A stretch of DNA of 63,982 bases, filler included, from Basidiobolus ranarum (taxonomy: Eukaryota): assembly GCA_040143965.1 (NCBI GenBank). It is 3 parts of 3 records of this genome, joined end to end, with 100 filler letters (N's around TTAATTAATTAA, not from the genome) between each part and the next. Parts side by side here need not be neighbours in the genome. Positions count along the whole stretch, not along the records: positions 22,928 to 45,676 come from JASJQH010000179.1; 2 more parts are not named here. The stretch is one strand, 5' to 3'. The stretch's first letter is position 1. The number at the start of each line of letters is the position of its first letter. Under the pieces are notes generated by a model, which was not told the DNA's origin, ran no database searches, and was given only the letters and a program-made list of their open reading frames with translations. Shown one piece after another: positions 22,828-45,776 of this stretch. The position numbers were made by a program, and so were the translations under genes.

Positions 22828-22927
22828 NNNNNNNNNNNNNNNNNNNNNNNNNNNNNNNNNNNNNNNNNNNNTTAATTAATTAANNNNNNNNNNNNNNNNN
22901 NNNNNNNNNNNNNNNNNNNNNNNNNNN
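22828..22927. other. Artificial contig/scaffold spacer
   Basis: 44 N + TTAATTAATTAA (stops in all six frames) + 44 N, exactly 100 bp. Confidence 0.97.
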
Positions 22928-23338: not shown

Positions 23339-25740
23339 ATGCTATCTACCGACGATTTACATTATACCCCGGTGCGCCCAGGCAACCCAATACAACTGCT
23401 ACGAAAGAAAAAAAATGCTACGTCTAATGAAGAACTGGAAATAATTCCAGAGGCTCTAGAGATCCTTGGACGTATCACAGGACCAATTGTCGTTGTAGCA
23501 GTTGTTGGAACTATGAGACAAGTAAGCTTGACATACTAAGAAATGCTGCCTAGTCAAGAATTATCATTGATTTTCCCAAAGGGAAAGAGTTACTTATTAT
23601 CTAGGATGCTTGGACGTCAAGAGGCCTTTGAACTTGGACCTACTACTGATCCAAAGACATTTGGTATTTGGACATGGGACACTCCATATGAGGTGACAAT
23701 TAATGACCAAAAGGCTACGCTCATTCTACTAGACACTGAAGGTTACCCAAAATATACACCATAGGACCAAATACTTGATAGACAAAGCTAACAGATTGCT
23801 TCGTATTATAGGTCTAGGAGCTCCAAATGCTACCGAACAATGGTTAATATATGTTACGTGGTAAATCTGACTAAATGATAGCCATTGATCACTCAAAATA
23901 TTGTAGGGATACTAAAATCTTCGTACTTTCTCTTTTGCTGTCATCTCTCTTTATCTACAACACTCGTGGAGCTATCGATCGTGAAGCAATTCAAAAGTTG
24001 AGGATCATGCAGGATTTAACTAGGCTTATTGAATCCAGTAGCGAAGCAGTTGTAGATGAAGATTGTGATGACAATGCCGAGCAATTCTCTGAGTATTTCC
24101 CTGAGTGTATGTCGATTCATATATTTTCTTTCCTTGCCTAAAACTTACGTATAAACTATTCTCCAGTCTTGTGGGTTGTTAGAGACTTCAATCTCAAGTA
24201 TCCTGAAGGTGTCAATACGGCAAAGGAATATCTTCTTCGTGCTCTACGAAGTGAATCCGATACAATGGGCAAAAAGGGGATATCATTGAAAGCACGCCAA
24301 GAAATTAAAGATACCGATGAAATCAGAAAGTCCATCGTATATTATTTTGGTAACGCTGATTGCCATACTATGCCACTGCCAGTGAGTAATCCAGAGGAAA
24401 GTGGTTTCGTTGATATTCCAACAGCCATGCAAAATCTTCGTAAGTAAAGGGCTTTCTATCATAAAAATGCAAACTGAAATATTGACCTATCGATTATAGA
24501 TCTAATTCCATATGAGAGATTGTCAATGGCTTTTAGGTCTTCAATGGATGGATTTCTGGGAAAAGCGGGTGCTATGATGAATTTAAAACGTTTTAAAGAT
24601 GGCTCGCTTATGACTGGTGCGTCCTTTGCTCAACTTCTACAAGTTTATGTCCGGCAGATCAACACCAGTAATTGTATTAAGGTTGCTGATGCTTACCAAG
24701 GTATCACTATTTATCTTAACCTGGCATGGCTGTCTTTAAATTTACCAATTTGATTATTATCTGTAGCTGTGGTTGATCAGGTGACTAAAAAGGCCATAGA
24801 TTTGGCTATTAGTAACTATCGGTCTTGCATGGAGTCATTTGAAAACACACATCCTAACGAGCCCGTCATGGGCGAATTTCTAATTAGTAAACATATCGAA
24901 TTTTACAAAAAATCTCTTGATATTTTAAATCAAAATCTGTTAGGATCTAATGAGGAGGTGGAGAAGGTTCATTTGGAGCTGAAAGAGATGATCATTCAAC
25001 AAGACAAGGATAACCGAATATTAAATAGTTGCGTATTTTCGGAGTTTCATGAGAGAAACTCGGCTCTTATTGTTGCAAGAAATGAAATGTTGGTCAACGA
25101 TATTTGGCAAGGGCTAATTGGTAAGCGCTTAAATGGTTCAGAGAAGGATGAGTTCACTTCATATCAAGAGTTCATTGATGCTATCGGCGCATTTCAAAAC
25201 GAGTATGAAAGAAATTGTTTTCCAGGAGTGGAGGCTAAGCAAGTGTTCCTCAGATATCTGGAAAAAGTTGAGGAGAGTAAAGCCAGGCTCAATATGTGGT
25301 TCAAGCAAAAAGGAATGTTCGAAGAAAGATTGGCCAAGATACAGGAGGAGAATTTGCAAATCCAAAAACAAGCCAATCGCATTCAAATTGAGAATGAGAG
25401 TTTGATAGCCTCCATGAAGAGAATACATGAGGAGCATGAAGCCTCCTTAAATATGATGTGGGAGCGTATTGAAAGCAAGCATCAGGAGGCTGAGGAAGTT
25501 AGAAACCAACGGCAACTTCAATTCGAAAGGCAGCAGGAGGCATTTATCCAGATGAGAGATGACGACTTGGCTGAATTCAAGCAGCTTCAACGAGAAGAAT
25601 TGAAAGAACAGGAAAGAAACATGCAGCGAGATTACGATACAAAACTCAAGGCCCTCCAAGAGGACCATAAAAGATTAGAAGCCGAGAATCAGCAACTAAA
25701 AGCAAAGAAACAGAAAAAGAATTCTTGCAATGTTATGTGA
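23339..25740 (+). CDS. Guanylate-binding protein (GBP)-like large GTPase with C-terminal coiled coil and CaaX
   Basis: After splicing: VVAVVGTMRQ|GKSYLLSRMLG (G1), KTFGIW (G2), LLDTEG (G3), DTKIFVLSLLLSSLFIYN, WVVRDF (G4), then a helical stalk ending KAKKQKKNSCNVM*. Confidence 0.92.
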
Positions 25741-27202
25741 ACATCTGAATTCTCCCCATGTGATATTCTGGCATAGTGGTCGATAGCTAATATTAAATAT
25801 TATACTCTTGTCTTGATTGTATCATGTTTAAATTTCGTATGATCTTCATAACCTGTCTCTCAAACACAATACTACCATGCGTAATTTTAATAACATAATT
25901 GAAAACGTATGGATTCCACCAGTTCCATAATACTTGCGAGTTCGCGAAATAATCTTAATTGAATCATCACATAGGAAGTACTTACAATATTTCGGTCATT
26001 AATATCTCCTGTGCATTAGCTTATACGTAGTTGAAGATTCATTCCATGAGGCCAAAGAAAAAGATATGTTAACACACCAAAAAAAGATTGAGATTCATGA
26101 CCAAGACCAAGAAAAGAACTCTGATACATTCTCTTTTGTATACGCTTCGTTCAAGGGAACTCTAGCTCAATTGTACATACAGCTCTCAGATCCCGAGTGG
26201 CTCTTAATTAGCTCGTATCTGTAATTGACAAGTCGTGTGGGTGGGTAACAAGGCTTATTTGAAACCGATTCCTCCCAGATTATTATTACAATATATATAT
26301 ATATCGATATAATAGAACATATTCGATTTCTCCCAACCTGCTAATATCTATTTTCCCCTTCATTTAGTTCGTCTAATTAGGGTATATTTGGTTTAAAGTT
26401 CCCATGTATAAAGTATATTGATCAAAATACTTTCAAAGGTTGCCTACAAAAGAAGTCAGTTAAGCTCCAGTTGTTTTCAAAAATCATACCAAGTTCTCCT
26501 CATACTTTATATTTCACAGTGGCTGCTTTCAAGTTTCAATCGTAGTATGACCGAATCAAGCCACTTCATGTTTTGTTCCCAAACGATACCAATCCAGTTT
26601 AGTTTCTATCTTGAATGAGTGAATATCGTATTCGATATCATGATTTGCCGATTTTACTGATTACAAATAAATCCAAACCCCGTTGTTGCGCAGAGTATTT
26701 ATAAGGAGGTAATAGTTACATACATCCACATGTTCTGGATTCGAGGGTCAGTAATAGTCAGGTTTTATGGTAGCACCGATTTCAAGTACTTCTAGGAGTT
26801 TACCAATTTGATTCCGAAGGTGCTCGCCAGGCGACGAAGTACAACTTGCGTATGTTAGTTTGATATATGCTTCTGCTTAATTTATCTCATTCTCATTTTA
26901 TAGATATATGAGGTTGAATGAGTGCGTTAAATTTGTGCTATATTAACCAATAGTTAATTTCGCCAAAGGAAAGTACAAGGCCTGATATGATGAAAGTAGT
27001 GAGATAGTTTACTTTGATCAACTAAAGACAATATATTGAAAATATACGGTGGCAATTTTCCTAACGTAAACTACTGCAATTACTTGATAAAAGTACGCTC
27101 GCCATTTCGTAACCGATGATATTCAATGTTCAACCTGGTTCGCGAGATAAAAATAATGTTGCTTATTGATTAACAAAATTTGTCAATAAGCGATAACATG
27201 GT

Positions 27203-29493
27203 TTATGTTATGACACAGTCCCGTCGTTTCATATTTGCACTCCGATGATCAATCGTCATGCAGGTCGCTAAAAAATATTCGGCGGGAATTAAGAGATTTT
27301 GACCAGTCAGTTGAAAATCAACATTCATGACACTAGAATATAGCTCAATAGCTTCCGACGCTGTTACATCATCATAGTATGTGTCTTCTGTTAGAAGGTC
27401 TGGTAAAGCCAACGAAATATCAATGTTTGCATCGAATGTGATTCTCGCAATCTTGATATTTTCTAGAATCCTTGTAAATTCGATTGGATCCTGAACCATT
27501 TTGCGATAGCGATGCTCGCCAAATAATTTTTCTAGGAGCCTTAACACACGTCTATCAATCACAGCTGCACTTTTGTTCTCACCATTCTCTGAAACGGATA
27601 TAGATGGAACTCCACGTGATACCACAGAGGCAGGCTCTTTAGGTGCTACTGAAACAGACTCTTTAGGCCCATAAGATGCTTTTTTGGGGAGAAACAATGC
27701 ACGTCCATCAACCACTGTTGATTTCCTCTTCGCGCCATTCCCCGGAACAGATATAGATGGAACTCTACGTGATACCACTGATGCGCGCTCTTTAGGCCCC
27801 AAAGATTCAGATTCATCAAGAGTTGTCTTAGAAAAAGTACTGATCATCTGTTCAACTCTAGATCTATATGCCTGTTGCGCTATAAATCCCGTATCGGCAC
27901 CAAGCAGTACAGCACCTAGAAATTATGTATACTTAGAGAAATATTCATCAATACGGACAAACTTAAAATTACCTTTCACTATGGCTTCACCAGGCCTTTC
28001 TAAAACTATGATCCTAGCCTTGCCAAACTCTCGAGCAAATCGACTCTGAAGCTTACGGGAATTAGAAAACCCTCCAACTAATGAGATTTTACTATACGTC
28101 ATGGGTAAATAATGAGTGGTATCTCAAATGATGTTATTAGCTACCTAATGCCCTTATGCTGAGTAAGAATGCCTCTAACATGTTCCACTATCCGATTGAT
28201 CGTTGGTTCCATGCAGGTTTTGTAAAAGTAATCATTTGGGACTAAAAGGTTTTGACCAACTAAGCGAAGGTCTACATTGTGCTTCATGGAGTATCGCTCT
28301 GTAGCTTCAATAGCCGTTATCGTATCTTCATGTGTGTTAGCAGTTAAAAAATCTGGTACGACAAGTACATACTCGGAATCCTCATCAAATGCAATTTTCG
28401 CCATTTCGATGTCTTCTTGAATTTTTGCAAATCCAGAAGGGTCCCGAGTCATATTCTGATAACGATGTCTGCCAAATATTTCTTCTAAAAGTTTCAACAC
28501 ACGCCAATTTATGGCTGTCGATCCCCAGTTTCCACCATATGCTGGAATCACTGATCCATATACAGAGATTATTTGTTAGAGCAATTATCAAAGCTTCAGC
28601 AACGAATCATAAGCATACCTTCTTTGATCTTCGGTTGTAGATTAACTTCATGCACAGTAACATCAACACTTTCCCTACTGCAGTTACAAACCATGTGCAT
28701 AGAACCTAAGTTTAATCCTATATTGTTGGATTGAAATGTCCAAAGGAAAGCAGCGTCAGGCTCAAGTACTAATTGTAATGCGTAACCTTTTAGGTCTGCC
28801 AATTCTGCTGCATCTCTCATCACTTGCTTTTCTGCATCACTCCATATAACGGGAACAGTTATAATCCATTTGATTTCACACTCTAGTATGTCATTTGTTG
28901 ATCTGTTGATTTGTGCGAGAAGTGCTATGGAAGTAAATTATTAACATTTTGGATATCGGAGTGGGCATATCTTGGATATTACAATGCTTGATGTACTTCA
29001 AACTTTCAGATAATACAGTTTTAGCAGCAACCTTAATCCCATTAGCTGCAGAAATAAGCATATATCCCCTAACCGATGGCTTATATAAATTCCTTTTGAA
29101 ATGTTCGAAGTATCTGTCTTTGATTTCAGAACCATTCACTTTGCATTTCATTACTATGTCTTGATATTTCGTCTGAGCGGATTTCCCAAAAGCAATGAAC
29201 TTGTTGTTTTCATCTAAAAGCACAGCAGTCTCAGTTTTACCATATTTTCCATCAGCCCACGGACCATTAGAAAAAATGGAATCTCGAGCATCCGTTATCC
29301 CACCCTTTCCGGGGTAGGCAAAAGCATAACTAATATAAATAATTGGTTACGAATATTTTCATGAATTTCAGAACGATAGAATCTACCTTGTCTTATATGT
29401 ACCAAAATCGATTGCAGCAATACACTTGGCATCGGTAGGGCGAATATACTCCCTAAATGGATTAATCTTATCAGGCGCAACTCTTTTAAGCAT
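27203..29493 (-). CDS. HSPA12-like Hsp70 copy A: predicted ATPase-dead, with rearranged C-terminus
   Basis: Six exons appear open: CIAAIDFGTYKTSYAF, ITVPVIW, LVLEPDAAF, VCNCSRESVDVTVH, LVGGFS, IVKGAVLLG, then repeats and a second copy of the IDRRVL...YF..CM segment. Confidence 0.8.
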
Positions 29494-32588: not shown

Positions 32589-34694
32589 CTACTCATTAAA
32601 TGTTAAACGGACTTGATTGCTTTTTCCTTTAGAATTTACAGCCTTGACGAGTATTTCTGAGGAAAAAAGCATGCTGCAAGTAATTCTAGAATTATTATGT
32701 TAATACCGTGATATCGCAACTGTACTGGGTTATAGTCAATACCTATCATATTTTCCGTCGCATTCCAAATCAAATGAACCGGCTTTCCTAACATGATTGT
32801 CGGTAACAAACTTCACCTCATGCCTGTTCACTTTGTAAATTGCGATATTTACGTTGCTCTGATTATCCTCTACCGCCATATATTCACGGACAATTTCTTC
32901 CCCGACTTCAACAATCTCATTCATTGTCACAAACGGATCGAACACGTCCCGACAATGCTTTGAGCCATCACTAGCGTAAAATATCTTCTCTTCTGGGTGC
33001 ACTGCTGGGTTGAATTCAACGCCAATGCTGCTTCCGTAGGTAAATCTTGCTTTACGTTGGGTCACTAACCCCGGATCGGCTCCAAACAACACAGCGCCTA
33101 TCAGTTTTCATGCTTAGTTTAAATATGTTCCCTCATATAAACAACAGAGATATCACCTTTCATTATAGCTTCTCCTGGCATATCTGGAACAATGATTTTA
33201 ATCTCCTTAAAATCTTGAGTGAATCGATTTTGGAGCGAGCGACAATTGGCAAAATTTCCTACTAAAACGACCTTACTTAAGATCAAGAATCAATATTTGC
33301 TGTACAGAATATTACATATGGTTGATGATACCTTATATCCTTATGCTTATGAATAACACCTTTAACGTGATTCATTGTATCATTAATTGTTGGCTCCATA
33401 CAAGTTTTGTAGAAATAATCAGCGGGAATTGAAAGATTCTGACCCACTAGATGAAGCTCCACATCTTGAGCCTTTGAGTATCTTTTTACGGCTTCTACAG
33501 TGGGTAATCCATCATTATCCAATCCAGATGTCAAGGAATCCGGCAAAACCAGTACAATATCGGTATCTGCGTCAAATGTGATTTTTGCCGCATCGATATC
33601 TTCTGCAATCCTCGCATATCCGAACGGATCTTTAGTCATATTGTTATAACGCTGTTTTCCAAATATTTCTTCTAAAAGTTGCAATACACGCCGATCAATC
33701 GCTGTCGATCCCCAATTTCCTCCATTGGCTGGAATTGCTAATTCATATACAGAGATTCTATGTTAGAGCAATCATCATAGAGACTAGTTCACAGAACAGC
33801 CCTCATTATTAAGGAGTCACAACCATACCTTCTTTCACTTTTCTTTGTGAATACTCAACTTCATGCACAGTAACATCGATGGTTCCCCCACCACAGTCAC
33901 ATACCATGTACACAGAACCTGGTTCCATTCCTAGATCATTGGATTGAAGCACCCAAAGAGAAGCAGCTTCAGGCTCAAGGGCTAGCTGTAGAGCCGCACC
34001 ATGTAAACCTGCCAACTCAGCCGCATCTCTCATTACTTGTTTTGCTGCATCACTCCATATAGCGGGAACTGTTAGAATCCATTTGATTTCACTCTCTATT
34101 ATACCTTGGGTTGATTTGTTTATTTGAGCGAGAAGTACTATGGGTGGAAAAGATGTTAGACTTTGAATATGCGAGTGCTTGTTTAAAGGTATTACCTTCT
34201 TTGATGAACTTTAGACTTGCCGAGAATACAGTTTTAGCGGTAACTTTAACTCCATTAGCTGCAGGAATAAGCATTTTCCCACTAATTGAGGTCTCATATA
34301 AATTCATTTTGAAATATTGGAAATATCTTTCTTTGATTTTAAGACCACCTGCTTGACTTCTCATAGCCATGGCTCGATACTTTGTCTGGGCCGATTTTCC
34401 GAAAGCGATAAACTTATTATTTTCGTCTAGAAGTAGGGCGGTTTTAGTTTTACCCTCCTTTCCATCAGACCATTGACCATTAGTAAAAACGGAACTTCGA
34501 GCCTCTGTAATCCCGTCAGTCCCGGGAAAAGCATAAGCAAAGCTATAACAAGCATTTAATAGCATTCTAGTGAACTCAAGTGTGGTGGGTACCTACCCTG
34601 TACCAGATGTACCAAAATCTATGGCAGCAACGCACTTGGCATTAGTAGGACCAATGTATTCACTAAATATATCAGCAGTAGCTCTTTTTAGCAT
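32589..34694 (-). CDS. HSPA12-like atypical Hsp70, copy B
   Basis: CVAAIDFGTSGTG|YSFAYAF, KTKTALL, WILTVPAIWSDAAKQVMRDAA, LALEPEAAS, CDCGGGTIDVTVH, LVGNFAN, GAVLFG..P..VTQRKARFTYG, ends FNE*. Confidence 0.92.
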
Positions 34695-35496: not shown

Positions 35497-37646
35497 TTAT
35501 TCATTGAATGTCAGACGGACTTGATTACTTTGCCCTCGGGAATTCACTGCCTTGACTAATATTTCAGAGGAGAATAGCATACTAAAATTGACACTAACAT
35601 CCGCATGTTATTATGTTAATTATACAAATAATATATGTATATATGTATATGTCTATTATTACCTATCCTCCCGTCCAGAGCATTCCAAACTAAATGAACC
35701 GATTTGCTCAACCAGAGTATCTGTGATGTATTTCACATCTCGTCTAGGTGCTTTGTAAATTATAAAGTCCATAGTAGATTGCCGTTTTTCCACTGTTTGG
35801 TATGTTCTTGTAACCTCTTTACCTACTTCTAAATTTTCACCCATCAAAACAAACTTGGCAAATATATCTTGGCAATATTTTCGGCCGGCTTTACTCCTAA
35901 ATGATTTATATTCATCATGAACGGCCTCGTCAAACACAGCACTGATTCTGTGTCCGTATGTAAATCTGGATTTCCGTTGCGTCACCAACCCAGGGTCAGC
36001 GCCAAATAGTACGGCACCTAAAAGTGTTATTTAGACATGGAAATATGCATATAAAGAGAAGCAAGGCACTACCTTTTACTATAGCTTCACCAGGAGGGGT
36101 GGGAACTTTTACTTCAATATAGCGAAACTCCTGGATAAATTGTTTCTGAAGCTGGCGGCAATTGGCGAAATTTCCCACTAAAATGATTTTACTACAAAAA
36201 AATTGTTAAATAATGTGTAGTATCCCAGATATTGTTCTTAACTACCTGATCCCCGTATTATTTTTGACAATATTCCTAACATGTGTCACTGTTTGCGTGA
36301 TCGTAGGCTTCATACAGTTTTCGTAAAAATAGTCAGCTGGAATCATAAGATTTTGACCGATCAGGAAAAACTCGGCATTCTTTTTCTCACAAAATCTTTC
36401 CATAGCTTCAGCGGCAGTTGTTGTATCGCCATGCGTTTTAGCAGTTAAAGAATCTGGAACAACAAGTACAATATCAGTATCTTCATCAAATGTAATTTTA
36501 GCCATTTCAATGTCCTCTTTAATCTTCAAAAATCCTAATGGGTCCTCCGTCATATTCAGATACCGATTTTTGCCAAAGATTTCTTCTAAAAGTTGCAATA
36601 CGCGTTGATCTATTGTTGTCGATCCCCAGTCCCCTCCGTCGGCTGGAATTACTAATTTATAGGCAAAGGCTAATTACTAAAACAATCCTCGCTACTTCCA
36701 TAGAAACTTGCGATCCTACCTTCTTTCACCTTTCTTTGCGAGTAGTCAACTTCATGCACAGTAACATCGATAGTTCCCCCACCGCAGTCACATATCATGT
36801 ACTTAGAATCTGGGTCCATGCTTAGGTCATTGGATTGAAGTGCCCAAAGGGAGGCAGCCTCTGGCTCAAGCGCTAACTGCAAGGCAACACCTTTTAAACC
36901 TGCCAATTCTGCTGCCTCTCTCATCACTTGCTTTGCTGCATCACTCCATATTGCGGGAACTGTTAGGACCCATTTGATATCACGCTCGGATATACCATTT
37001 GTTGATTGGTCAATTTGGGCGAGAAGGGCTATGGGGGTAATATACGTTAGCATTTTGGGTATATTAGTGACTATAGTTGGAGATAATACTTTTCTTAATG
37101 TATTTCAAACTCTCAGAAAATACAGTTTGAGCAGCAATCTTAACTCCGTTAGCTGCAGAAATAAGCATCTTTCCACTAACGGATGTCTTATACAAATTCA
37201 TTTTGAAACATTCAAAATATCTTTCTTTGATTTCAGGTTTAGATGAACTTGCGTTGCCTTTCATGACCATGGCTTGGTATTTGGCTATGTCAGATTTATA
37301 TTTCATTGCTATGGATTGATATTTCTTCTGGGCCACTTTTCCGAAAGCCATAATCTTATTATTTTCATCTAAGAGTAAAGCGGTCTTAGTTTTACCATCC
37401 TTTCCATCAGCCCATGGACCATTGGAAAATAATGCGGTTCGAGCGTCTTTAATCCCGTCAGATCCAGGAAAAGCATAAGCATAGCTATAAAAAATATTTA
37501 GTCTTATTCCAATGAATTCAAGTATGATGCGCACCTTACCCTGTACCAGATGTGCCAAAATCGATAGCGGCGACACATTTCGCATTGGTGGGTCCAATAT
37601 ACTCGTCAAATACGTTAGCAGTAGTAGTAGTAGCTCTTCTGATCAT
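35497..37646 (-). CDS. HSPA12-like atypical Hsp70, copy C
   Basis: Same motifs and intron positions as copy B (IDFGTSGTG, VPAIWS, EPEAAS, DCGGGTID, GNFAN, RKSRFTYG), ends FNE*. Confidence 0.92.
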
Positions 37647-38996: not shown

Positions 38997-40061
38997 TTAA
39001 CTTATGCATACGAGCTGCATCTTTGTTGGCTGACGAGCACCGTGCGAATCAATTTGGTAGATGGCAGGTAGAACGGGAAACGGAACTTCTACAGCAGGTA
39101 CAATTACACCCTTCAGTAAAAATGAAGCATTCGTTTGTTGTTGCGTAAAGTCATATTCAACTTTTGGTTCTACCAATGAGAGTAACAAAATTGTATCGAT
39201 AAGACCTTCCAGATGAGCTTGCACGCCATCAAATAGTTGTTCAGTTTGGATATTACTTAGTACAGCAGTACATATCCTTTTATGCATATCAGACTGTAAA
39301 CTGGAGTTTTCGAAGTTGGCAATGATGATTGATTTGACGTACATTAGATTGCGCTGGTAAAAATCTGAATCATCGGCTTCCTCATGACCCAAACAGAGTA
39401 AAGTATGAGTAATATGCTCAAACATTGTTCTAAACGTCATTCCAAAGATTTCCTCAAGAAGCTTGGAAAGATACATCACTTGATGTAAAACGTTTGTCGG
39501 TTGCGTTTTTTGTGCCGTAAGAGAAGAAAAAACAACCGATTTGATTTTATTTTCGAACTTCTTAAATCGTGGCACTAAGTTTTCCAGTGTCACTGTTTGC
39601 AGCTGACCATTTGCTGTGACGAGCTGACTAAGTAATCGGGCGGTCTCATTCTGGGCCTTGCTTAACTCTACGGTCAATCTTTTCTGGACACCTGTTAATT
39701 CGGTCTTCTCATGTTGAATATATAGGTTAACTTCGTTTTGAAACTTGCTGCCTTGCTTATGTTGTTCATGCAACATTTCATACATTCTATTCATCTTCTG
39801 TTCCAATGTGCCAATGCTTATGGCGACGTTAGTACTACTTCCGCAACACGACTGCTCCTTAGGGCTAGATTTTTCTCTTAGCACACCTGGACTGGTTTCG
39901 ACTTTCTTTTGCCTGTTCTGACTGAGGCCACCTGGTTGGCCTTTGGGGTTAGCATAGTATTCAGGCATATGCCCTTTTCTTTCTGGATAGGAATTCGGTG
40001 TTTGCATATTAGGAGCCTCTTTGGGGTTACTGCCAGTCAAAGGGTTTTTCATAGTGCTCAT
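38997..40061 (-). CDS. Uncharacterised intronless coiled-coil protein CC1, paralog of 43977-44981
   Basis: Long ORF (open up to 40175; MSTMKNP start preferred). Disordered N-terminus, coiled coil, and a C-terminal domain shared with CC2. Confidence 0.8.
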   Translation of the reverse strand: MSTMKNPLTGSNPKEAPNMQTPNSYPERKGHMPEYYANPKGQPGGLSQNRQKKVETSPGVLREKSSPKEQSCCGSSTNVAISIGTLEQKMNRMYEMLHEQHKQGSKFQNEVNLYIQHEKTELTGVQKRLTVELSKAQNETARLLSQLVTANGQLQTVTLENLVPRFKKFENKIKSVVFSSLTAQKTQPTNVLHQVMYLSKLLEEIFGMTFRTMFEHITHTLLCLGHEEADDSDFYQRNLMYVKSIIIANFENSSLQSDMHKRICTAVLSNIQTEQLFDGVQAHLEGLIDTILLLSLVEPKVEYDFTQQQTNASFLLKGVIVPAVEVPFPVLPAIYQIDSHGARQPTKMQLVCIS

Positions 40062-41116
40062 CGTGCTTAGAATAATTGGAGATATGAGTAAAATAGAAAC
40101 CCTTTTTATGAACGTTGGAAAATCTCCGGAGTCAACCTGAATGCTACTGTTTTCTCTATACAGGAATTGTAACATTCAACTGGCACTAAATTTAATTAGT
40201 GTAGTGCAGCGGTTACAATGTATATATGACCAAAATCCGTGAGTTAACTCTTCGAACTAATGACACGGTTTTACAATCCTGAATCTTGCACTGATAGCCA
40301 AAAGTGTCACGCCGGTTCTTTGTATGGAAATACAGTTTCAACTCGACTTGTGTGAGTTCTGGTATATATATACAGGATTGCTCTTGGTACAAGCTCAAGT
40401 ACGATCCAATCGAGTTAGACTTCCGAGATTTTGCCCCACAAACTAGAATTGCCATCATATTTACTAATAAACTTTTCCTTGTTGGAATAATGAATTCATA
40501 ATATACTTGAATATACTTTACTGAATGAAGTTTCTAACGTACTGTGCTCTTTGAAAAAGCATAGAATTCGCGATCTGGTAGGAATAAAAACTAAATCAGT
40601 TTACAATCTTATTTCTATCTTTTTAAGCGAAAGCTGGCTATGGTGCCCACCTTGTATGTTGCAAAGCGTTTTTAATTACCGATTGAAATTAGTCCAAGCA
40701 GTGATTTAGGACTATGGTAAAGATTACCATATTCGTTCCTTATCTTTTCAGTTAGTGTAAATCAAATACATTTAATCGTCAAAGGCTAGAGGTATATATA
40801 TATATATAACAGCAGAATAGATTCGATATTTGAAGAGAGACATTGCTACAGGAGATACAATGCAACTATGTTAAGGGAGCTTTGAATTTTAATTTTTCAT
40901 AATCCGAAAGCAATTAAACCATAGGCAATTCCTATTAGTAATATTTTGTGTTTGTAAATGTAGCATTCACCTCTTGTGCGCATTGTATACTAAGCGAACT
41001 AATGTAATGATAGTAATTAATCAGTGTAAAGAAAGTTCTTGGGATGTAAGAGCGTCAATATATTTAAAATTTGTTTCATTGCCAATACTTAATGAAGTAT
41101 AAATTAGATTGGGTTT

Positions 41117-43117
41117 TTACTCATTAAATTTTAACCGGATCTGGTTTGTCTCGCCACTAGAGTTTTCTGCTTTGACTAATATCTCTGAAGAGAATATCAT
41201 GGTGTATTTGATCCTAGAATATAGCTAGTTTAACAATGAGTATAGAGGTATTGCTTTCATTATAGTTACCTATCATTACTTCCCTTGCAGGGTAATGTGA
41301 AAGATCCTATCTGTTTGACCTGAAAGTCAGTGGTAAATTTTACTTCACGCCTTGCCACTTTGAATATTTGAAAACCAACTGTGGTATTATCATCATCCAA
41401 AGCATAATATTCCCGGGAAACTTCCTCACCTACCGCCATCTCCTCTCCCATGATTGCAAGTCGATCAAAGATATCATTGCAGTGCTTAGTTCCTCTCTTT
41501 GTTGTTATGGCTTTTGATTCTGGGTGTATACTTTCATCGAAAACGTGAGCCACTCGTTCTCCGTAGGTAAAGCGCAATTTACGAGATGTTACTAGCGCAG
41601 GGTTAGCTCCAAATAAGACAGCACCTTTCATTATAGCATCTCCAGGTAAATTTGGGATGATAACATCGACAGACCGGAAAGATTCGATGAATTTAGTCTG
41701 AAGTGGTCGGCAGTTGGCGAAATTTCCTACTAAAACAATTTTGCTAGATAACAAGTGAGTAAAAATATGAGGTATAGTCATCTATACCAGTAGATACCTT
41801 ATTCCGGGGTTTCGACCTAATATTCCCTTGACGTGAGCTACTGTCGAATTAATGGTTGGCTCCATGCATGTCTTGTAAAAGTAAGTTGCAGGAATTAAAA
41901 AATTGGAACCCAACAGCTGGAAGTCGGCATTTTCATTACTAGAGTAGAGGGATACTGCTTCTTCAACAGAAAGTTCATCATCAGGTGTTTGTGATGCTAA
42001 TGATTCGGGAAGTACCAGAACAATATCAGTATCGATATCAAATGATATTTTGACTGATTCGATATCCTCAAGTAGCTTTGTATATCCCATCGAATCCTGA
42101 AGCATGCGCTTATAGCGCTGCTGTCCAAATATCCTTTCTAAAAGAGCTAGCACTCGTCTATCAATAGCTGTTGATCCCCAGTCTCCTCCAGTTGCAGGTA
42201 TTGCTATTGAGTATCGGGTTAGTCTTGGTAAAAGGTTGGATTACTTCTTGATTCCTGTTAATACCTTCTTTGACCTTTCGCTGCGAAGAATCCACTGCAT
42301 GGACAGTGACGTCAATAGTTCCGCCTCCACAATCACAAACCATATAGGTAGAACCTACGTCTACACGTAGGTCATTAGATTGTAAAACCCACAAGGACGC
42401 AGCCTCCGGTTCAAGAGCCAATTGTAGTGCTACACCCCTCAAACCTGCTAATTCTGCAGCTTCTTTCATCACTTGCTTTGCAGCATCACTCCATATAGCT
42501 GGGACTGTTAAAATCCATTTGATATCACTTTCATCCATGTGCCCACTGGATTTGGTGATTTGGTCCATCAATGCTGAAATTGATTTTCGAATTAATTTTC
42601 AAACATCATACATCAATGACAATTACTTAAAAACTTACACTTTTTGATGTATTTTAAACTTTCGGAAAATACTATAGTCGCCGAAACTTGGTCACCATTT
42701 TTAGCTTTTATTTTCAAACCTGCATTCACCGAGTCTGTGTAGAGATTCATTTTAAAATACTCAAAATATCTCCCTTTATTTTGAAATGCCATAGCTCGAT
42801 ATTTTGTTTGCGCCGCTTTTCCAAACGCTATAAATTTGTTGTTCTCATCCAAGAGTAATGCCGTCTTGGTTTTCCCGGGTCTTCCATCAGCCCAAGGACT
42901 GTTAGTATAAACGGAGCCTCGTGCATCGCTTATTCCATCCCAACCTGGAAATGCAAACGCATATCTATTCATATGTTAGTTTACAAGGCCTTTTGCTCAA
43001 TATTAGGTTGAAGACTCACCCGGTACCAGATGTTCCGAAATCAATGGCAGCTACGCATTTTGCAGTTGTTGGGCCTGTGTATTCCCTGAATATATCTGGA
43101 GTTGGACCTTGAAGCAT
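41117..43117 (-). CDS. HSPA12-like atypical Hsp70, copy D
   Basis: MLQGPTPDIFREYTGPTTAKCVAAIDFGTSGTG|YAFAF, VPAIWS, EPEAAS, DCGGGTID, LVGNFAN, RKLRFTYG, ends FNE*. Confidence 0.92.
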
Positions 43118-43976
43118 AATACAGATTATTTTAGATACAGTAACTTGCCAAGGCTGATATTTAAATAGTTAACACCACTTAATGAAATTGCACGGAGTTA
43201 AACAATTGCGTTCATAATATAGAAATCACCACGGTAATAACACTACGATATGAGGTAGTTTCCTTTGGCCGTACAAATGGTGTACGTTGCCCCAAATAAT
43301 AAATATCTTTGTATCACAGTATATGGCGAACTGAACTAGCAGTATTCGTGAGTTCTTGATCGATAATTCACCGGATGTACATCATTTGGGTTGTGCCTGT
43401 GTGAGATGATACAAAGCATTAACTGTTTAAAAAACATTCTAGCCCATTGTTTTCTAAATACTTCCCACCGTTGAAGTACCTTCTTTATTATAAGCATATG
43501 AATTATAATTCGACAATAGATTTTGTCATCTTGAATGAGATTATGCCCCTAATTGAATATAGAATATTCTTGGGCTAATAAAAGAGTCTTGCTAATTTCT
43601 TGTAATATTCAGGTATTTCTAATTTGGAAACATCAGCGATAGAATTAAAATATCCTCCACAAGTACTATTCTTAGTCACATGAGGCAATGGGACACCAGG
43701 ATTGAGAAATTAATGTACCAACAGATCATGACCACAATATAAGAAGGACGCTGTTTCCAACCTACCAGATCAGAGTTCACACACCAATGGCTACACCTAA
43801 CGATTTACTGCCAAATAATGGCATGCAATTAGACGTGAGTAGAGGAGATCAATCCATTGAAGGCAAGAAAGACAATAATGGCACTTCGGTAATATAGTCA
43901 TCTGATTTTTCATATATAGCATGTATTAAATCGTTCTTCTGAATTTTAGACTTTAGACTATCTACATCAAGTAATT

Positions 43977-44981
43977 ATGGGGAAGCCACAGACGAACTAT
44001 AAAAATCACCATGAAAGCAATGAAGGCAATCAAAACTTGATAAGAGAACTTGAACGAATGCAATCACGAATTACTAGTTTGGAGAGGAGCAATGCTAACA
44101 TTGAAGAAAAACTACTATACATTGGCTTAGAGTCCCATGCTGCTAAAGGGTTTAAAAATCACAACGAAGACAAACAAAGAATCAAATTTCTGGAGAAGGA
44201 ATGCGCAAACTTGTGCAAGCAAAACTCATCTTTGAAAGATTATGAAAAGAAGTACAACAATCTCAAAACTCAGATTCAGGAATTTCAAAAAAATTACGAT
44301 GGTCTACTAGCCGCTTGTGACATGCAAGCTAAACAATTGGAGCGTGAGAAAAATGAAAATGCTAATTTACGAAGCCAACTTGTAACTGCTGATGGACAAG
44401 TGAAGGAAGTCACCATAGAGAGCATTTTTGGGTCCCTAAAAGCTTTTGAAAGTAAGGTCACCCCAGTCCTATTTAAGATCGGAAAGACTCCAAATATCTG
44501 TCATGATCTTGATGCGTTCTCCAAAGCCATGCAACAACTATTCAATACAACTTCCGCCTTTGCGGCTAGCCATGTTGAAGACACCATGGCTAAGTTAGGC
44601 CACCTTCGCGATGATAAGTCGCAACTGTGCGTTCGTAATCGAGTTTATGTTCGAACAATTATTATCGCTAATCTTGAAAATTCCGGTTTAATGCAACAGA
44701 TGTGTGATGAGGTTCTTAAAGGACTGGCTGAAGAATACCACACCAATAGCTTATTTTCTCATATTCTAATGCATCTGCCTAATTTAGTAAATGCAGCATT
44801 GCTTCTTGCTCTAGTAGAGCCACAGGTTGCTACATCATTCAAGTTGAGAGGAGACTCTATTGCCATGCTGAAGGATTTCGCTGGAAGCAAAAGGCCAATT
44901 CCAATTCTTCCTGCCATCGATCAGGTTGGGATTAACGGCGATTTTCAGCCGACCAAGATGGTTATGCGGTATATTAACTAG
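43977..44981 (+). CDS. Uncharacterised intronless coiled-coil protein CC2, paralog of 38997-40061
   Basis: 334-aa ORF with a heptad-rich N-terminal half; C-terminal half aligns with CC1 (SQLVTAxGQ, RNxxYVxxIIIANxENS, LLLxLVEPxV, PxLPAIxQ, QPTKM). Confidence 0.85.
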   Translation: MGKPQTNYKNHHESNEGNQNLIRELERMQSRITSLERSNANIEEKLLYIGLESHAAKGFKNHNEDKQRIKFLEKECANLCKQNSSLKDYEKKYNNLKTQIQEFQKNYDGLLAACDMQAKQLEREKNENANLRSQLVTADGQVKEVTIESIFGSLKAFESKVTPVLFKIGKTPNICHDLDAFSKAMQQLFNTTSAFAASHVEDTMAKLGHLRDDKSQLCVRNRVYVRTIIIANLENSGLMQQMCDEVLKGLAEEYHTNSLFSHILMHLPNLVNAALLLALVEPQVATSFKLRGDSIAMLKDFAGSKRPIPILPAIDQVGINGDFQPTKMVMRYIN

Positions 44982-45356: not shown

Positions 45357-45676
45357 TCAATCACTAAAGCTGATTCGTATTTCCTTTGTCTCTCCTTGAG
45401 AGTTCACAGCTTTGGCTAATATTTCCGAGGAAAATAGCATACTAAATTTTACGCTATATAATATATTAGTTCCAGGATCTATGCTGATATTTCGAAAATT
45501 GATTACCTATCATCTGGGCCACACCAAACTATGTCGAAAGTGCCGACTTTTTGAACTCTAAAATCAGTTGTGTACATTATTTGGGGCCTGGGTGCCTTGA
45601 AGATTTCAAACGTAATTGACTTTTGCTCCAACTCAATGGCAAAATATTCTCTAGTTATTACTTCGTTAGGTTCCAA
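45357..45676 (-). CDS. HSPA12-like Hsp70 copy E, 3' end only (truncated by gap)
   Basis: EVITREYFAIELEQKSITFEIFKAPR...TTDFRVQKVGTF|...KFSMLFSSEILAKAVNSQGETKEIRISFSD*, with the same last intron as copies B-D. Confidence 0.85.
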
Positions 45677-45776
45677 NNNNNNNNNNNNNNNNNNNNNNNN
45701 NNNNNNNNNNNNNNNNNNNNTTAATTAATTAANNNNNNNNNNNNNNNNNNNNNNNNNNNNNNNNNNNNNNNNNNNN
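45677..45776. other. Artificial contig/scaffold spacer
   Basis: 44 N + TTAATTAATTAA + 44 N. Confidence 0.97.

What the first reader, a model, noticed from the sequence alone, without database searches (positions are those of the whole stretch)
38997..44981. Two orphan paralogs define a new protein family that may be a GrpE/Mieap-like Hsp70 cofactor
Seen: CC1 and CC2 have no evident N-terminal similarity but align over ~190 C-terminal residues. Examples: SQLVTANGQLQTVTLE / SQLVTADGQVKEVTIE; RNLMYVKSIIIANFENS / RNRVYVRTIIIANLENS; LLLSLVEPKV / LLLALVEPQV; PFPVLPAIYQIDSHGARQPTKMQL / PIPILPAIDQVGINGDFQPTKMVM. Inference: long coiled coil, helical bundle ending at L.EP, and a short terminal beta region (PAI....G....K.V) recall GrpE and the Mieap/IRKI-type C-terminal domain. 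Each gene sits just upstream of an Hsp70 copy, suggesting dedicated nucleotide-exchange factors or adaptors.
Basis: partly seen in the sequence, partly recalled or inferred. Interest (0 to 1): 0.78.

Follow-up and report, generated by a model that had tools for sequence, protein, structure and literature searches.

The report
Orphan partners of HSPA12-like ATPases
Two related coiled-coil genes of the fungus Basidiobolus ranarum sit inside a row of unusual Hsp70-type ATPase genes and probably encode helper proteins for them, because related ATPases in bacteria, protists and fungi keep a helper-like gene in the same spot, but for these two genes the link is suggested and not proven.

Summary
CC1 and CC2 are 36% identical over 217 residues, with no similarity at the N-terminus. 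The family has a third B. ranarum paralog with no ATPase on its contig, a remnant in the array and one unnamed homolog. CC2 is head-to-head with HSPA12-like copy D; CC1 lies between D and C. Five ATPase copies share two intact CC genes, so they are not one-per-copy. All 15 of 15 bacterial loci of this ATPase type carry an adjacent gene with a GrpE-like head (hhalign 91%). One such bacterial pair passed complex prediction (0.74, best control 0.26). The weak step is CC's own membership of that partner family: in-register but marginal profile match (P about 0.04), a weak Mieap feature hit for the homolog only, no Pfam match, and no GrpE in fold searches. Best reading: very diverged cytosolic cofactors that bind the ATPase's IIB lobe and probably promote nucleotide exchange (0.5). 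They are not GrpE or Mieap family members by the tests run. The scan noted this pairing before in other genomes.

The parts
38997..40175 (-). CC1: intronless ORF (392 aa from first Met; 351 aa from the Met at 40052 in the protein collection). Unstructured-looking N-terminus, short coiled coil, shared C-terminal domain.
43787..44981 (+). CC2: deposited 377-aa protein (exon 1 43787-43888, exon 2 from 43950). Long coiled coil, then five-helix domain and small beta head. Head-to-head with ATPase copy D.
44334..44960 (+). Shared domain in CC2 (aligns to 39018-39668 in CC1); invariant LG, R, N, L.L.EP and PAI.Q positions across the four members
41117..43117 (-). HSPA12-like ATPase copy D: six exons, 569 aa, intact nucleotide-binding motifs, short beta substrate-binding part, no lid
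35497..37604 (-). HSPA12-like ATPase copy C, 581 aa modelled from an in-frame codon (true start is further 5'), intact motifs; downstream of CC1
32589..34661 (-). HSPA12-like ATPase copy B, 565 aa modelled from an in-frame codon, intact motifs; no CC gene directly upstream
27203..29451 (-). Degenerate copy A: DCGGGT motif lost, C-terminal part replaced by a repeat of an internal segment
45357..45676 (-). 3' end of a fifth ATPase copy, E; its 5' part is on contig C2563, which overlaps the end of C179 by 11 nt in frame
26780..26848 (+). Remnant of a fourth CC gene: C-terminal motif only, 61% identical to CC1 over 23 aa, local score 67 against a maximum of 38 in 300 shuffles
24142..25740 (+). 3' part of a guanylate-binding-protein-like gene ending in a CaaX-type motif (CNVM); neighbour of the array, link to it not shown

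Best explanation
CC1 and CC2 are fast-evolving, probably cytosolic members of an unnamed family of partner proteins that travel with lidless HSPA12-type Hsp70 ATPases. Each has a coiled coil, a helical domain and a small GrpE-derived beta head. The first helix of the helical domain and one head strand most likely grip subdomain IIB of the ATPase and open the nucleotide cleft, so they act as nucleotide-exchange factors shared among the intact copies of the array. Shown: paralogy, gene layout, intact ATPases, and the pairing of this ATPase type with a GrpE-headed gene elsewhere. Predicted only: binding on IIB, and for a bacterial pair. Inferred: that CC1/CC2 belong to that partner family, that they bind the Basidiobolus ATPases, and that binding speeds ADP release.
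For: (1) 15 of 15 bacterial loci found with the ATPase exon profile have a GrpE-head-like ORF just downstream; 13 were profile seeds, 2 were found as pieces. The partner profile matched none of 400 other genomes in each of three phyla and matched once in each centre genome. (2) Partner C-terminus against GrpE: probability 90.8%, E 1.2e-6, 48 columns, 0 of 40 block shuffles as high. (3) In metagenomes 16 of 20 loci with at least 3.5 kb upstream have a partner hit, 13 of them upstream on the opposite strand as CC2 is to D (profile partly built from these rows, several rows near-identical). A bacteria-only profile still finds 6 such upstream ORFs at E 0.0014 or better among 4031 ORFs. (4) The ATPases B, C, D fall in the tree among the non-bacterial-labelled rows that carry head-to-head partners (fork 93/94). 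(5) A second, distant HSPA12-like gene in the same genome is also head-to-head with a coiled-coil gene with a similar tail. (6) Bacterial cognate pair L035: score 0.74, best of 3 controls 0.26; runs agree in at least 63% of contacts, partner pLDDT at least 80; the mark was reached by 51 of 78 solved and 2 of 108 mismatched pairs. Contacts map to IIB. DnaK-GrpE is solved, so the pass may reflect likeness. (7) The CC2 domain model (pLDDT 68, pTM 0.68) shows five helices and then short strands after EP, at PILPAI and before the end. (8) CC against partner profile aligns 74 columns in register, P 0.039; 2 of 60 shuffles as high with the enlarged profile. (9) The homolog P0004 scores 0.91 with a MIEAP cluster in the ESM Atlas.
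Against: The sequence link is marginal: probability 1.3-1.4%, 4 of 40 and 2 of 60 shuffles reach it, 8 of 60 with the eukaryote-only profile, and three subfamily profiles gave nothing. HMMs of the partners do not find CC1-3 among 224 test sequences. CC against GrpE directly: P 0.18. No GrpE, MIEAP or GIL1/IRKI Pfam match for the domains. The F-D-P-x-x-H head motif of GrpE and the bacterial partners is missing in CC. The ESM hit is weak (recognition 2043, under 2300; 164 shared features) and the CC2 domain itself gave only 0.79 to an unnamed cluster. The head of the model has pLDDT 47-63. CC3 lies head-to-head with an aldo-keto reductase and has no ATPase on its 5960-bp contig. Copies A, B and E have no CC gene upstream in the DNA held. 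The C190 partner does not align with CC.
Confidence: 0.5

Rival explanations
1. CC1/CC2 bind the ATPases but not as exchange factors. They are adaptors or inhibitors that hold the ATPase in one state or link it through their divergent N-terminal coils to a target, in a defence-like module that may include the neighbouring guanylate-binding protein.
For: N-termini are unrelated between paralogs. The GrpE head motif is eroded. The system is rare and patchy in bacteria. The locus shows gene birth and death: copy A, the CC remnant, a broken copy of the C190 partner. A GBP-like gene is adjacent. HSP70 plus GrpE genes occur in some predicted bacterial conflict systems (PMC7159879, passages).
Against: The predicted contact surface in the bacterial pair is IIB, the lobe that exchange factors move (established knowledge, recalled). 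No PADLOC model matches the ATPase or the bacterial partners. No GBP link was seen or tested in other loci.
Confidence: 0.22
2. CC1/CC2 are an unrelated lineage-specific coiled-coil family that was caught in the tandem duplications of the ATPase array. The resemblance to GrpE or Mieap is generic.
For: No significant sequence, profile or fold match. CC3 sits away from any ATPase. CC1, CC2 and the remnant could stem from one insertion followed by local duplication.
Against: The gene in CC2's position is a partner-family gene in most comparable loci. The same genome repeats the layout at C190. The order of helices, EP, strand and P-A-I matches the partners in register. CC1 and CC2 have kept open frames although synonymous sites are saturated (pS 0.82, pN 0.45).
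Confidence: 0.22
3. CC1/CC2 are Mieap-like proteins that work in mitochondrial quality control independently of these ATPases.
For: ESM feature match of P0004 to a MIEAP cluster, 0.91.
Against: No PF16026 match; the only PF16026 candidate in the genome is a sub-threshold hit elsewhere. The first 30 residues contain 2-6 acidic residues and do not look like mitochondrial presequences (crude count, no predictor run).
Confidence: 0.06

Closest known systems
GrpE / Mge1 / GRPEL1 (Pfam PF01025) with DnaK-type Hsp70; complex 1DKG
   Same: Coiled coil, then helices, then a small C-terminal beta head; gene next to an Hsp70. The bacterial partners of this ATPase type match the GrpE head.
   Different: CC has a larger five-helix domain, lacks the F-D-P-x-x-H motif and has no Pfam or direct profile match. 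B. ranarum has two canonical GrpE genes elsewhere and 14 of 15 partner-bearing bacterial genomes have a separate grpE. The predicted bacterial complex is centred on the IIB hairpin, whereas in 1DKG, as recalled, the long helix runs along lobe I.
Mieap / SPATA18 (Pfam PF16026) and GIL1/IRKI C-terminal domain (PF24994)
   Same: Coiled coil plus helical domain plus short beta tail (recalled). ESM features place the homolog P0004 near a MIEAP cluster. One bacterial partner touches PF16026 at E 0.98 and one fungal-type partner touches PF24994 at E 0.14.
   Different: No Pfam match for any CC protein. No Mieap sequences or structures could be compared directly. No paper in the library held both 'hspa12' and 'mieap'.
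HSPA12A/B (lidless atypical Hsp70)
   Same: The neighbouring ATPases lack the lid and carry TVPAIW, LEPEAA and DCGGGT motifs; the name HSPA12-like rests on these recalled motifs. A 2026 review calls HspA12 function unknown (PMC13580251, passages).
   Different: Copies B, C, D have LVGNFA where relatives have LVGGF. No animal HSPA12 sequence was in my tree, so orthology was not tested.
GAP1-N2 conflict-system neighbourhoods with HSP70 and GrpE (Kaur et al. 2020, PMC7159879)
   Same: Accessory HSP70 and GrpE genes linked in patchy bacterial loci.
   Different: Those loci centre on a GTPase with FNIII/DnaJ or TPR proteins. Whether their HSP70 is the HSPA12 type was not tested; I read only passages, not the supplements, which may list such loci.

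Membership tests
GrpE (PF01025) | Match to the Pfam model above its cut-off | tested here: not met
   No PF01025 hit listed for full proteins or isolated domains at E up to 10 (one search showed only the best 25 of 34 and of 67 families for P0001 and P0004)
GrpE (PF01025) | Conserved head motif F-D-P-x-x-H-x-A | tested here: not met
   Present in 14 GrpE rows and recognisable in bacterial partners; absent in CC1-3, partial (F-P-E-E) in P0004
GrpE (PF01025) | N-terminal long helix / coiled coil | tested here: met
   CC2 helices 55-98 and 105-179; shorter in CC1
GrpE (PF01025) | C-terminal beta head of GrpE topology | tested here: inconclusive
   Strands at 153-156, 182-186, 192-194 of the domain model at low confidence; fold searches gave no clear match of any kind
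GrpE (PF01025) | Homodimer with four-helix bundle | not tested
GrpE (PF01025) | Nucleotide exchange on an Hsp70 | not testable with these tools
   Needs a biochemical assay
Mieap (PF16026) | Match to the Pfam model | tested here: not met
Mieap (PF16026) | Likeness by language-model features or fold | tested here: inconclusive
   P0004 0.91, 14 of 30 hits, low recognition score; CC2 domain 0.79 to an unnamed cluster; no predicted-structure library of cellular proteins was available
GIL1/IRKI C-terminal domain (PF24994) | Match to the Pfam model | tested here: not met
   Not listed for the four isolated domains at E up to 10
Unnamed partner family of HSPA12-like ATPases | Gene adjacent to an HSPA12-like ATPase, divergent in eukaryotes | tested here: met
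   CC2 divergent from D; CC1 adjacent but co-oriented; CC3 not adjacent
Unnamed partner family of HSPA12-like ATPases | Detectable sequence homology of the C-terminal domain | tested here: inconclusive
   In-register hhalign P 0.036-0.04; nothing with HMMER or subfamily profiles
Unnamed partner family of HSPA12-like ATPases | Binding to the neighbouring ATPase | not tested
   Predicted only for bacterial pair L035; no full-length Basidiobolus ATPase was available as a chain
HSPA12 (for the neighbouring ATPases) | Hsp70 nucleotide-binding motifs, no helical lid | tested here: met
   B, C, D 565-581 aa, motifs intact, ending after the beta part
HSPA12 (for the neighbouring ATPases) | One clade with animal HSPA12A/B | not tested
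   No animal sequences were in the tree

The most novel reading that the evidence does not exclude
HSPA12-type ATPases form a separate two-part chaperone system, from bacteria to fungi and protists, with their own GrpE-derived cytosolic exchange factor. CC1 and CC2 are its Basidiobolus version, and Mieap-type domains are the animal descendants of the same factor, so HSPA12 and Mieap would be an unrecognised ATPase-cofactor pair.
Probability: 0.3. Interest if true: 0.85.

Novelty: new variant of a known kind. Interest (0 to 1): 0.55.

Why it matters
A 2026 review states that HspA12 function is unknown and that no dedicated cytosolic GrpE was retained in eukaryotes (PMC13580251, passages). A GrpE-derived cofactor for HSPA12-type ATPases would qualify the second statement and give a direct handle on the first: a named partner, a predicted surface (IIB) and a simple ADP-release assay. 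It would also suggest testing HSPA12 against Mieap in animals. For this locus the gain depends on a family link that is still unproven.

Tried and rejected
Homolog searches: the word-indexed search found only CC2 itself, nothing among longer proteins, and nothing new with the four-row alignment. The metagenome scan with P0004 found no relative, so its genomic context is unknown. The viral scan with the ATPase profile found none. Pfam, NCBIfam and PADLOC gave only coiled-coil noise; the ATG16 hit (E 1.6e-5, below cut-off) and the UniRef name 'FRIGIDA-like' are not supported by the domain scan. PDB sequence search with the CC profile: best E 0.2. Fold searches with the full model were filled by the coiled coil; with the domain model the best Z was 6.4 (rmsd 4.2, 121 aligned, an ABC transporter), within background, and GrpE was not among the rows shown. 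That absence is not evidence against the fold. Subfamily profile alignments, local and global, were negative. A by-eye match of the first domain helix between CC2 and the L035 partner was not borne out by those alignments and is not counted. Rejected: one dedicated CC per ATPase copy (five copies, two intact CC genes); CC as the canonical Mge1 (two canonical genes elsewhere); frame or assembly artefact (both genes lie inside one contig and are in the protein collection). A spliced model of the C190 ATPase failed. Literature searches with no relevant paper: mieap+grpe (1 unrelated); grpe-like+hsp70-like+atypical (0); mieap+spata18+hsp70 (3 unrelated by listing); irki+grpe (0); hspa12+head-to-head+fungal (0); hspa12+mieap (0). 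Listings only for hspa12+fungi+expansion, hspa12+nucleotide exchange factor, basidiobolus+hsp70. The library lacks most subscription papers.
Full report
VERDICT. The two genes are real paralogs. They most likely encode cofactors of the HSPA12-like ATPases around them, but their own tie to GrpE or Mieap is weak, and by the tests run they are not members of either family.

SOURCE AND LAYOUT. The CC2 protein is deposited as a Basidiobolus ranarum hypothetical protein. The window is a concatenation of contigs separated by N spacers at 22828-22927 and 45677-45776; the finding lies inside contig C179. Along the plus strand the order is: GBP-like gene (+), CC remnant (+), ATPase copies A, B, C (all -), CC1 (-), copy D (-), CC2 (+), and the 3' end of copy E (-). 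The end of C179 overlaps the start of C2563 by 11 nt in frame, at the matching place in the protein, so E is the ATPase on C2563. Spliced models of B, C and D are open, 565-581 aa and 60-66% identical, with intact nucleotide-binding motifs and no lid. Copy A has lost its DCGGGT motif.

OBSERVATION. CC1 and CC2 align at 36% over 217 columns, E 5e-34; the shuffled maximum was 67 against 338. N-termini do not align. Synonymous sites are saturated while both frames stay open (pS 0.82, pN 0.45). A third paralog, CC3, lies on C8329, head-to-head with an aldo-keto reductase, with no ATPase trace on its 5960 bp. It is closer to CC1 (42%) than CC2 is (36%), lacks the last strand, and has dN/dS 0.45 against CC1. 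A 23-codon remnant of the C-terminal motif lies at 26780-26848. A profile search of 1.84 billion representatives returned 4 proteins: the three paralogs and P0004, an unnamed 321-aa protein at E 3e-6 that aligns over the whole domain. So the family is nearly but not strictly orphan.

ANATOMY. The full CC2 model is weak (pLDDT 55) but shows two long helices. The domain alone folds better (pLDDT 68, pTM 0.68): five helices, then strands at 153-156, 182-186 and 192-194, with pLDDT 47-63 in that head. No member has a strongly hydrophobic segment (maximum 19-residue hydropathy 1.67) or an obvious mitochondrial presequence (crude counts). Fold searches found nothing above background.

WHAT THIS ATPASE TYPE KEEPS NEXT TO IT. 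Notes from this scan suggested the pairing recurs, so I tested it. A profile of one ATPase exon found 15 bacterial loci. All 15 have, just downstream, an ORF ending in a GrpE-like head; 13 served as seeds and 2 were recovered as pieces at E 6e-28 and 1e-33. That head matches GrpE by profile (probability 90.8%, E 1.2e-6, 0 of 40 block shuffles), though no partner reaches Pfam GrpE and 14 of the 15 genomes have a canonical grpE elsewhere. The partner profile matched none of 400 other genomes in each of three phyla. In metagenomes I kept the best 80 of 430 confirmed loci. Of 20 with at least 3.5 kb upstream, 16 have a partner hit, 13 of them divergent; of the 60 shorter ones, 10. That profile included many of these rows and several rows are near-identical, so the count is not independent. 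A bacteria-only profile still ranks six upstream ORFs at E 0.0014 or better among 4031 ORFs, along with one hit far from its ATPase. One 3.2-kb contig has telomere-like repeats at both ends and holds the divergent pair (L079). In B. ranarum itself a distant ATPase on C190 is head-to-head with a 407-aa coiled-coil ORF with a similar tail; it does not align with CC and matches the partner profile only marginally (P 0.018, 2 of 60 shuffles). In a tree of 60 rows, B, C, D and E group together inside a fork (93/94) that holds the rows with divergent partners; rows with under 150 residues of the region and duplicates were left out, and several branches are long.

PREDICTED BINDING. Score 0.74, best of 3 controls 0.26; runs agree in at least 63% of contacts; partner pLDDT at least 80. 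The mark was reached by 51 of 78 solved and 2 of 108 mismatched pairs. ATPase contacts are mainly residues 288-315 and 329-334, which align with the IIB helix and hairpin of DnaK. Partner contacts are the first helix after the coil and a strand of the head. DnaK-GrpE is solved, so the pass may come from likeness. It says nothing direct about CC1 or CC2.

THE WEAK STEP. CC against the partner family aligns 74 columns in register (EP with PP, PAI with PGY) at P 0.039. With controls, 4 of 40 and 2 of 60 block shuffles scored as high, and 8 of 60 with the eukaryote-only profile. Three subfamily profiles gave nothing, HMMER does not bridge the gap in either direction, and CC against GrpE gives P 0.18. 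The ESM Atlas puts P0004 near unnamed ciliate and Mucoromycota clusters (0.92, 0.91) and a MIEAP cluster (0.91, 14 of 30 hits), but its recognition score is under the tool's bar, and the CC2 domain itself scored only 0.79. Position, architecture and these weak signals agree; I put homology to the partner family at about 0.75, binding to the local ATPases at about 0.65-0.7, and exchange activity at about 0.5. These odds are judgement, not computed.

MECHANISM. Most likely CC binds the ADP-state ATPase on lobe IIB, tilts it and releases ADP, as GrpE, BAG and Hsp110 do (recalled), while the divergent N-terminal coils set localisation or clients. With five ATPases and two intact CC genes the factors would be shared. 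Rivals are an adaptor or inhibitor role in a defence-like cluster (0.22), a chance passenger of tandem duplication (0.22), and an Hsp70-independent Mieap-like role (0.06).

LITERATURE. PMC13580251 (passages): HspA12 lacks the lid, its function is unknown, and no cytosolic GrpE isoform was retained. PMC7159879 (passages): HSP70 and GrpE genes in about 14% of GAP1-N2 neighbourhoods; supplements not read and may bear on overlap with the bacterial loci here. PMC13149161, PMC12692333 and PMC8778642 (passages) named no HSPA12 cofactor in what I saw. Six term searches found no paper on the pairing. The scan's own notes report the same pairing in other fungi, an amoeba and bacteria and at the C190 locus of this genome; they are unchecked and are not counted as support.

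SCORE. New variant of a known kind (an Hsp70 with a GrpE-type cofactor, in a branch with no described cofactor). Interest 0.55: the system-level idea is testable and bears on an open question, but this locus is its most diverged and least secure example.

Noticed in passing
L031:1473-4875 (G000:C190): A second, distant HSPA12-like gene lies head-to-head, about 200 bp apart, with an intronless 407-aa coiled-coil ORF with a GrpE/Mieap-like tail; no Pfam match and no alignment to CC1-3.
   Followed up: partly
L153 (G000:C2118:827-1914): A broken copy of the C190 partner gene (78% nucleotide identity over 1115 nt, stops and frame changes), with no ATPase trace on the 2882 bp held.
   Followed up: partly
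window 45666-45676 and L030:1-11: Contigs C179 and C2563 overlap by 11 nt in frame, so the ATPase array continues beyond the window's spacer and has five copies.
   Followed up: yes
window 22828-22927 and 45677-45776: Artificial spacers (N runs around a short AT-only linker) join unrelated contigs; genes across them are not true neighbours.
   Followed up: yes
window 24142-25740: GBP-like GTPase gene ending in CNVM, a possible prenylation signal, directly beside the ATPase array.
   Followed up: no
window 27203-29451: ATPase copy A keeps an open frame but has lost the DCGGGT motif and ends in a duplicate of an internal segment.
   Followed up: partly
window copies B, C, D: All three have LVGNFA where the related ATPases nearly all have LVGG; this may alter nucleotide binding.
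   Followed up: no
L035:1987-3807, L036:2137-3963, L037:2191-4014: A conserved ~607-aa gene lies upstream of the ATPase in three bacterial loci; the L035 copy has no Pfam, NCBIfam or PADLOC match. A possible third component.
   Followed up: partly
L079 (3231 bp), L063: Telomere-like CCCCAAT repeats at both ends of L079 and one end of L063 suggest ciliate gene-sized chromosomes carrying the ATPase and its divergent partner together.
   Followed up: partly
L054:1756-7377 and L070:13-3447: HSPA12-like domains inside much longer open frames (1874 and 1145 aa), possibly fusions.
   Followed up: no
L004:2156-4285 (G000:C8329): CC3 is head-to-head with an aldo-keto reductase-like gene (name recalled from its motifs, not scanned) and lacks the last predicted strand.
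   Followed up: partly
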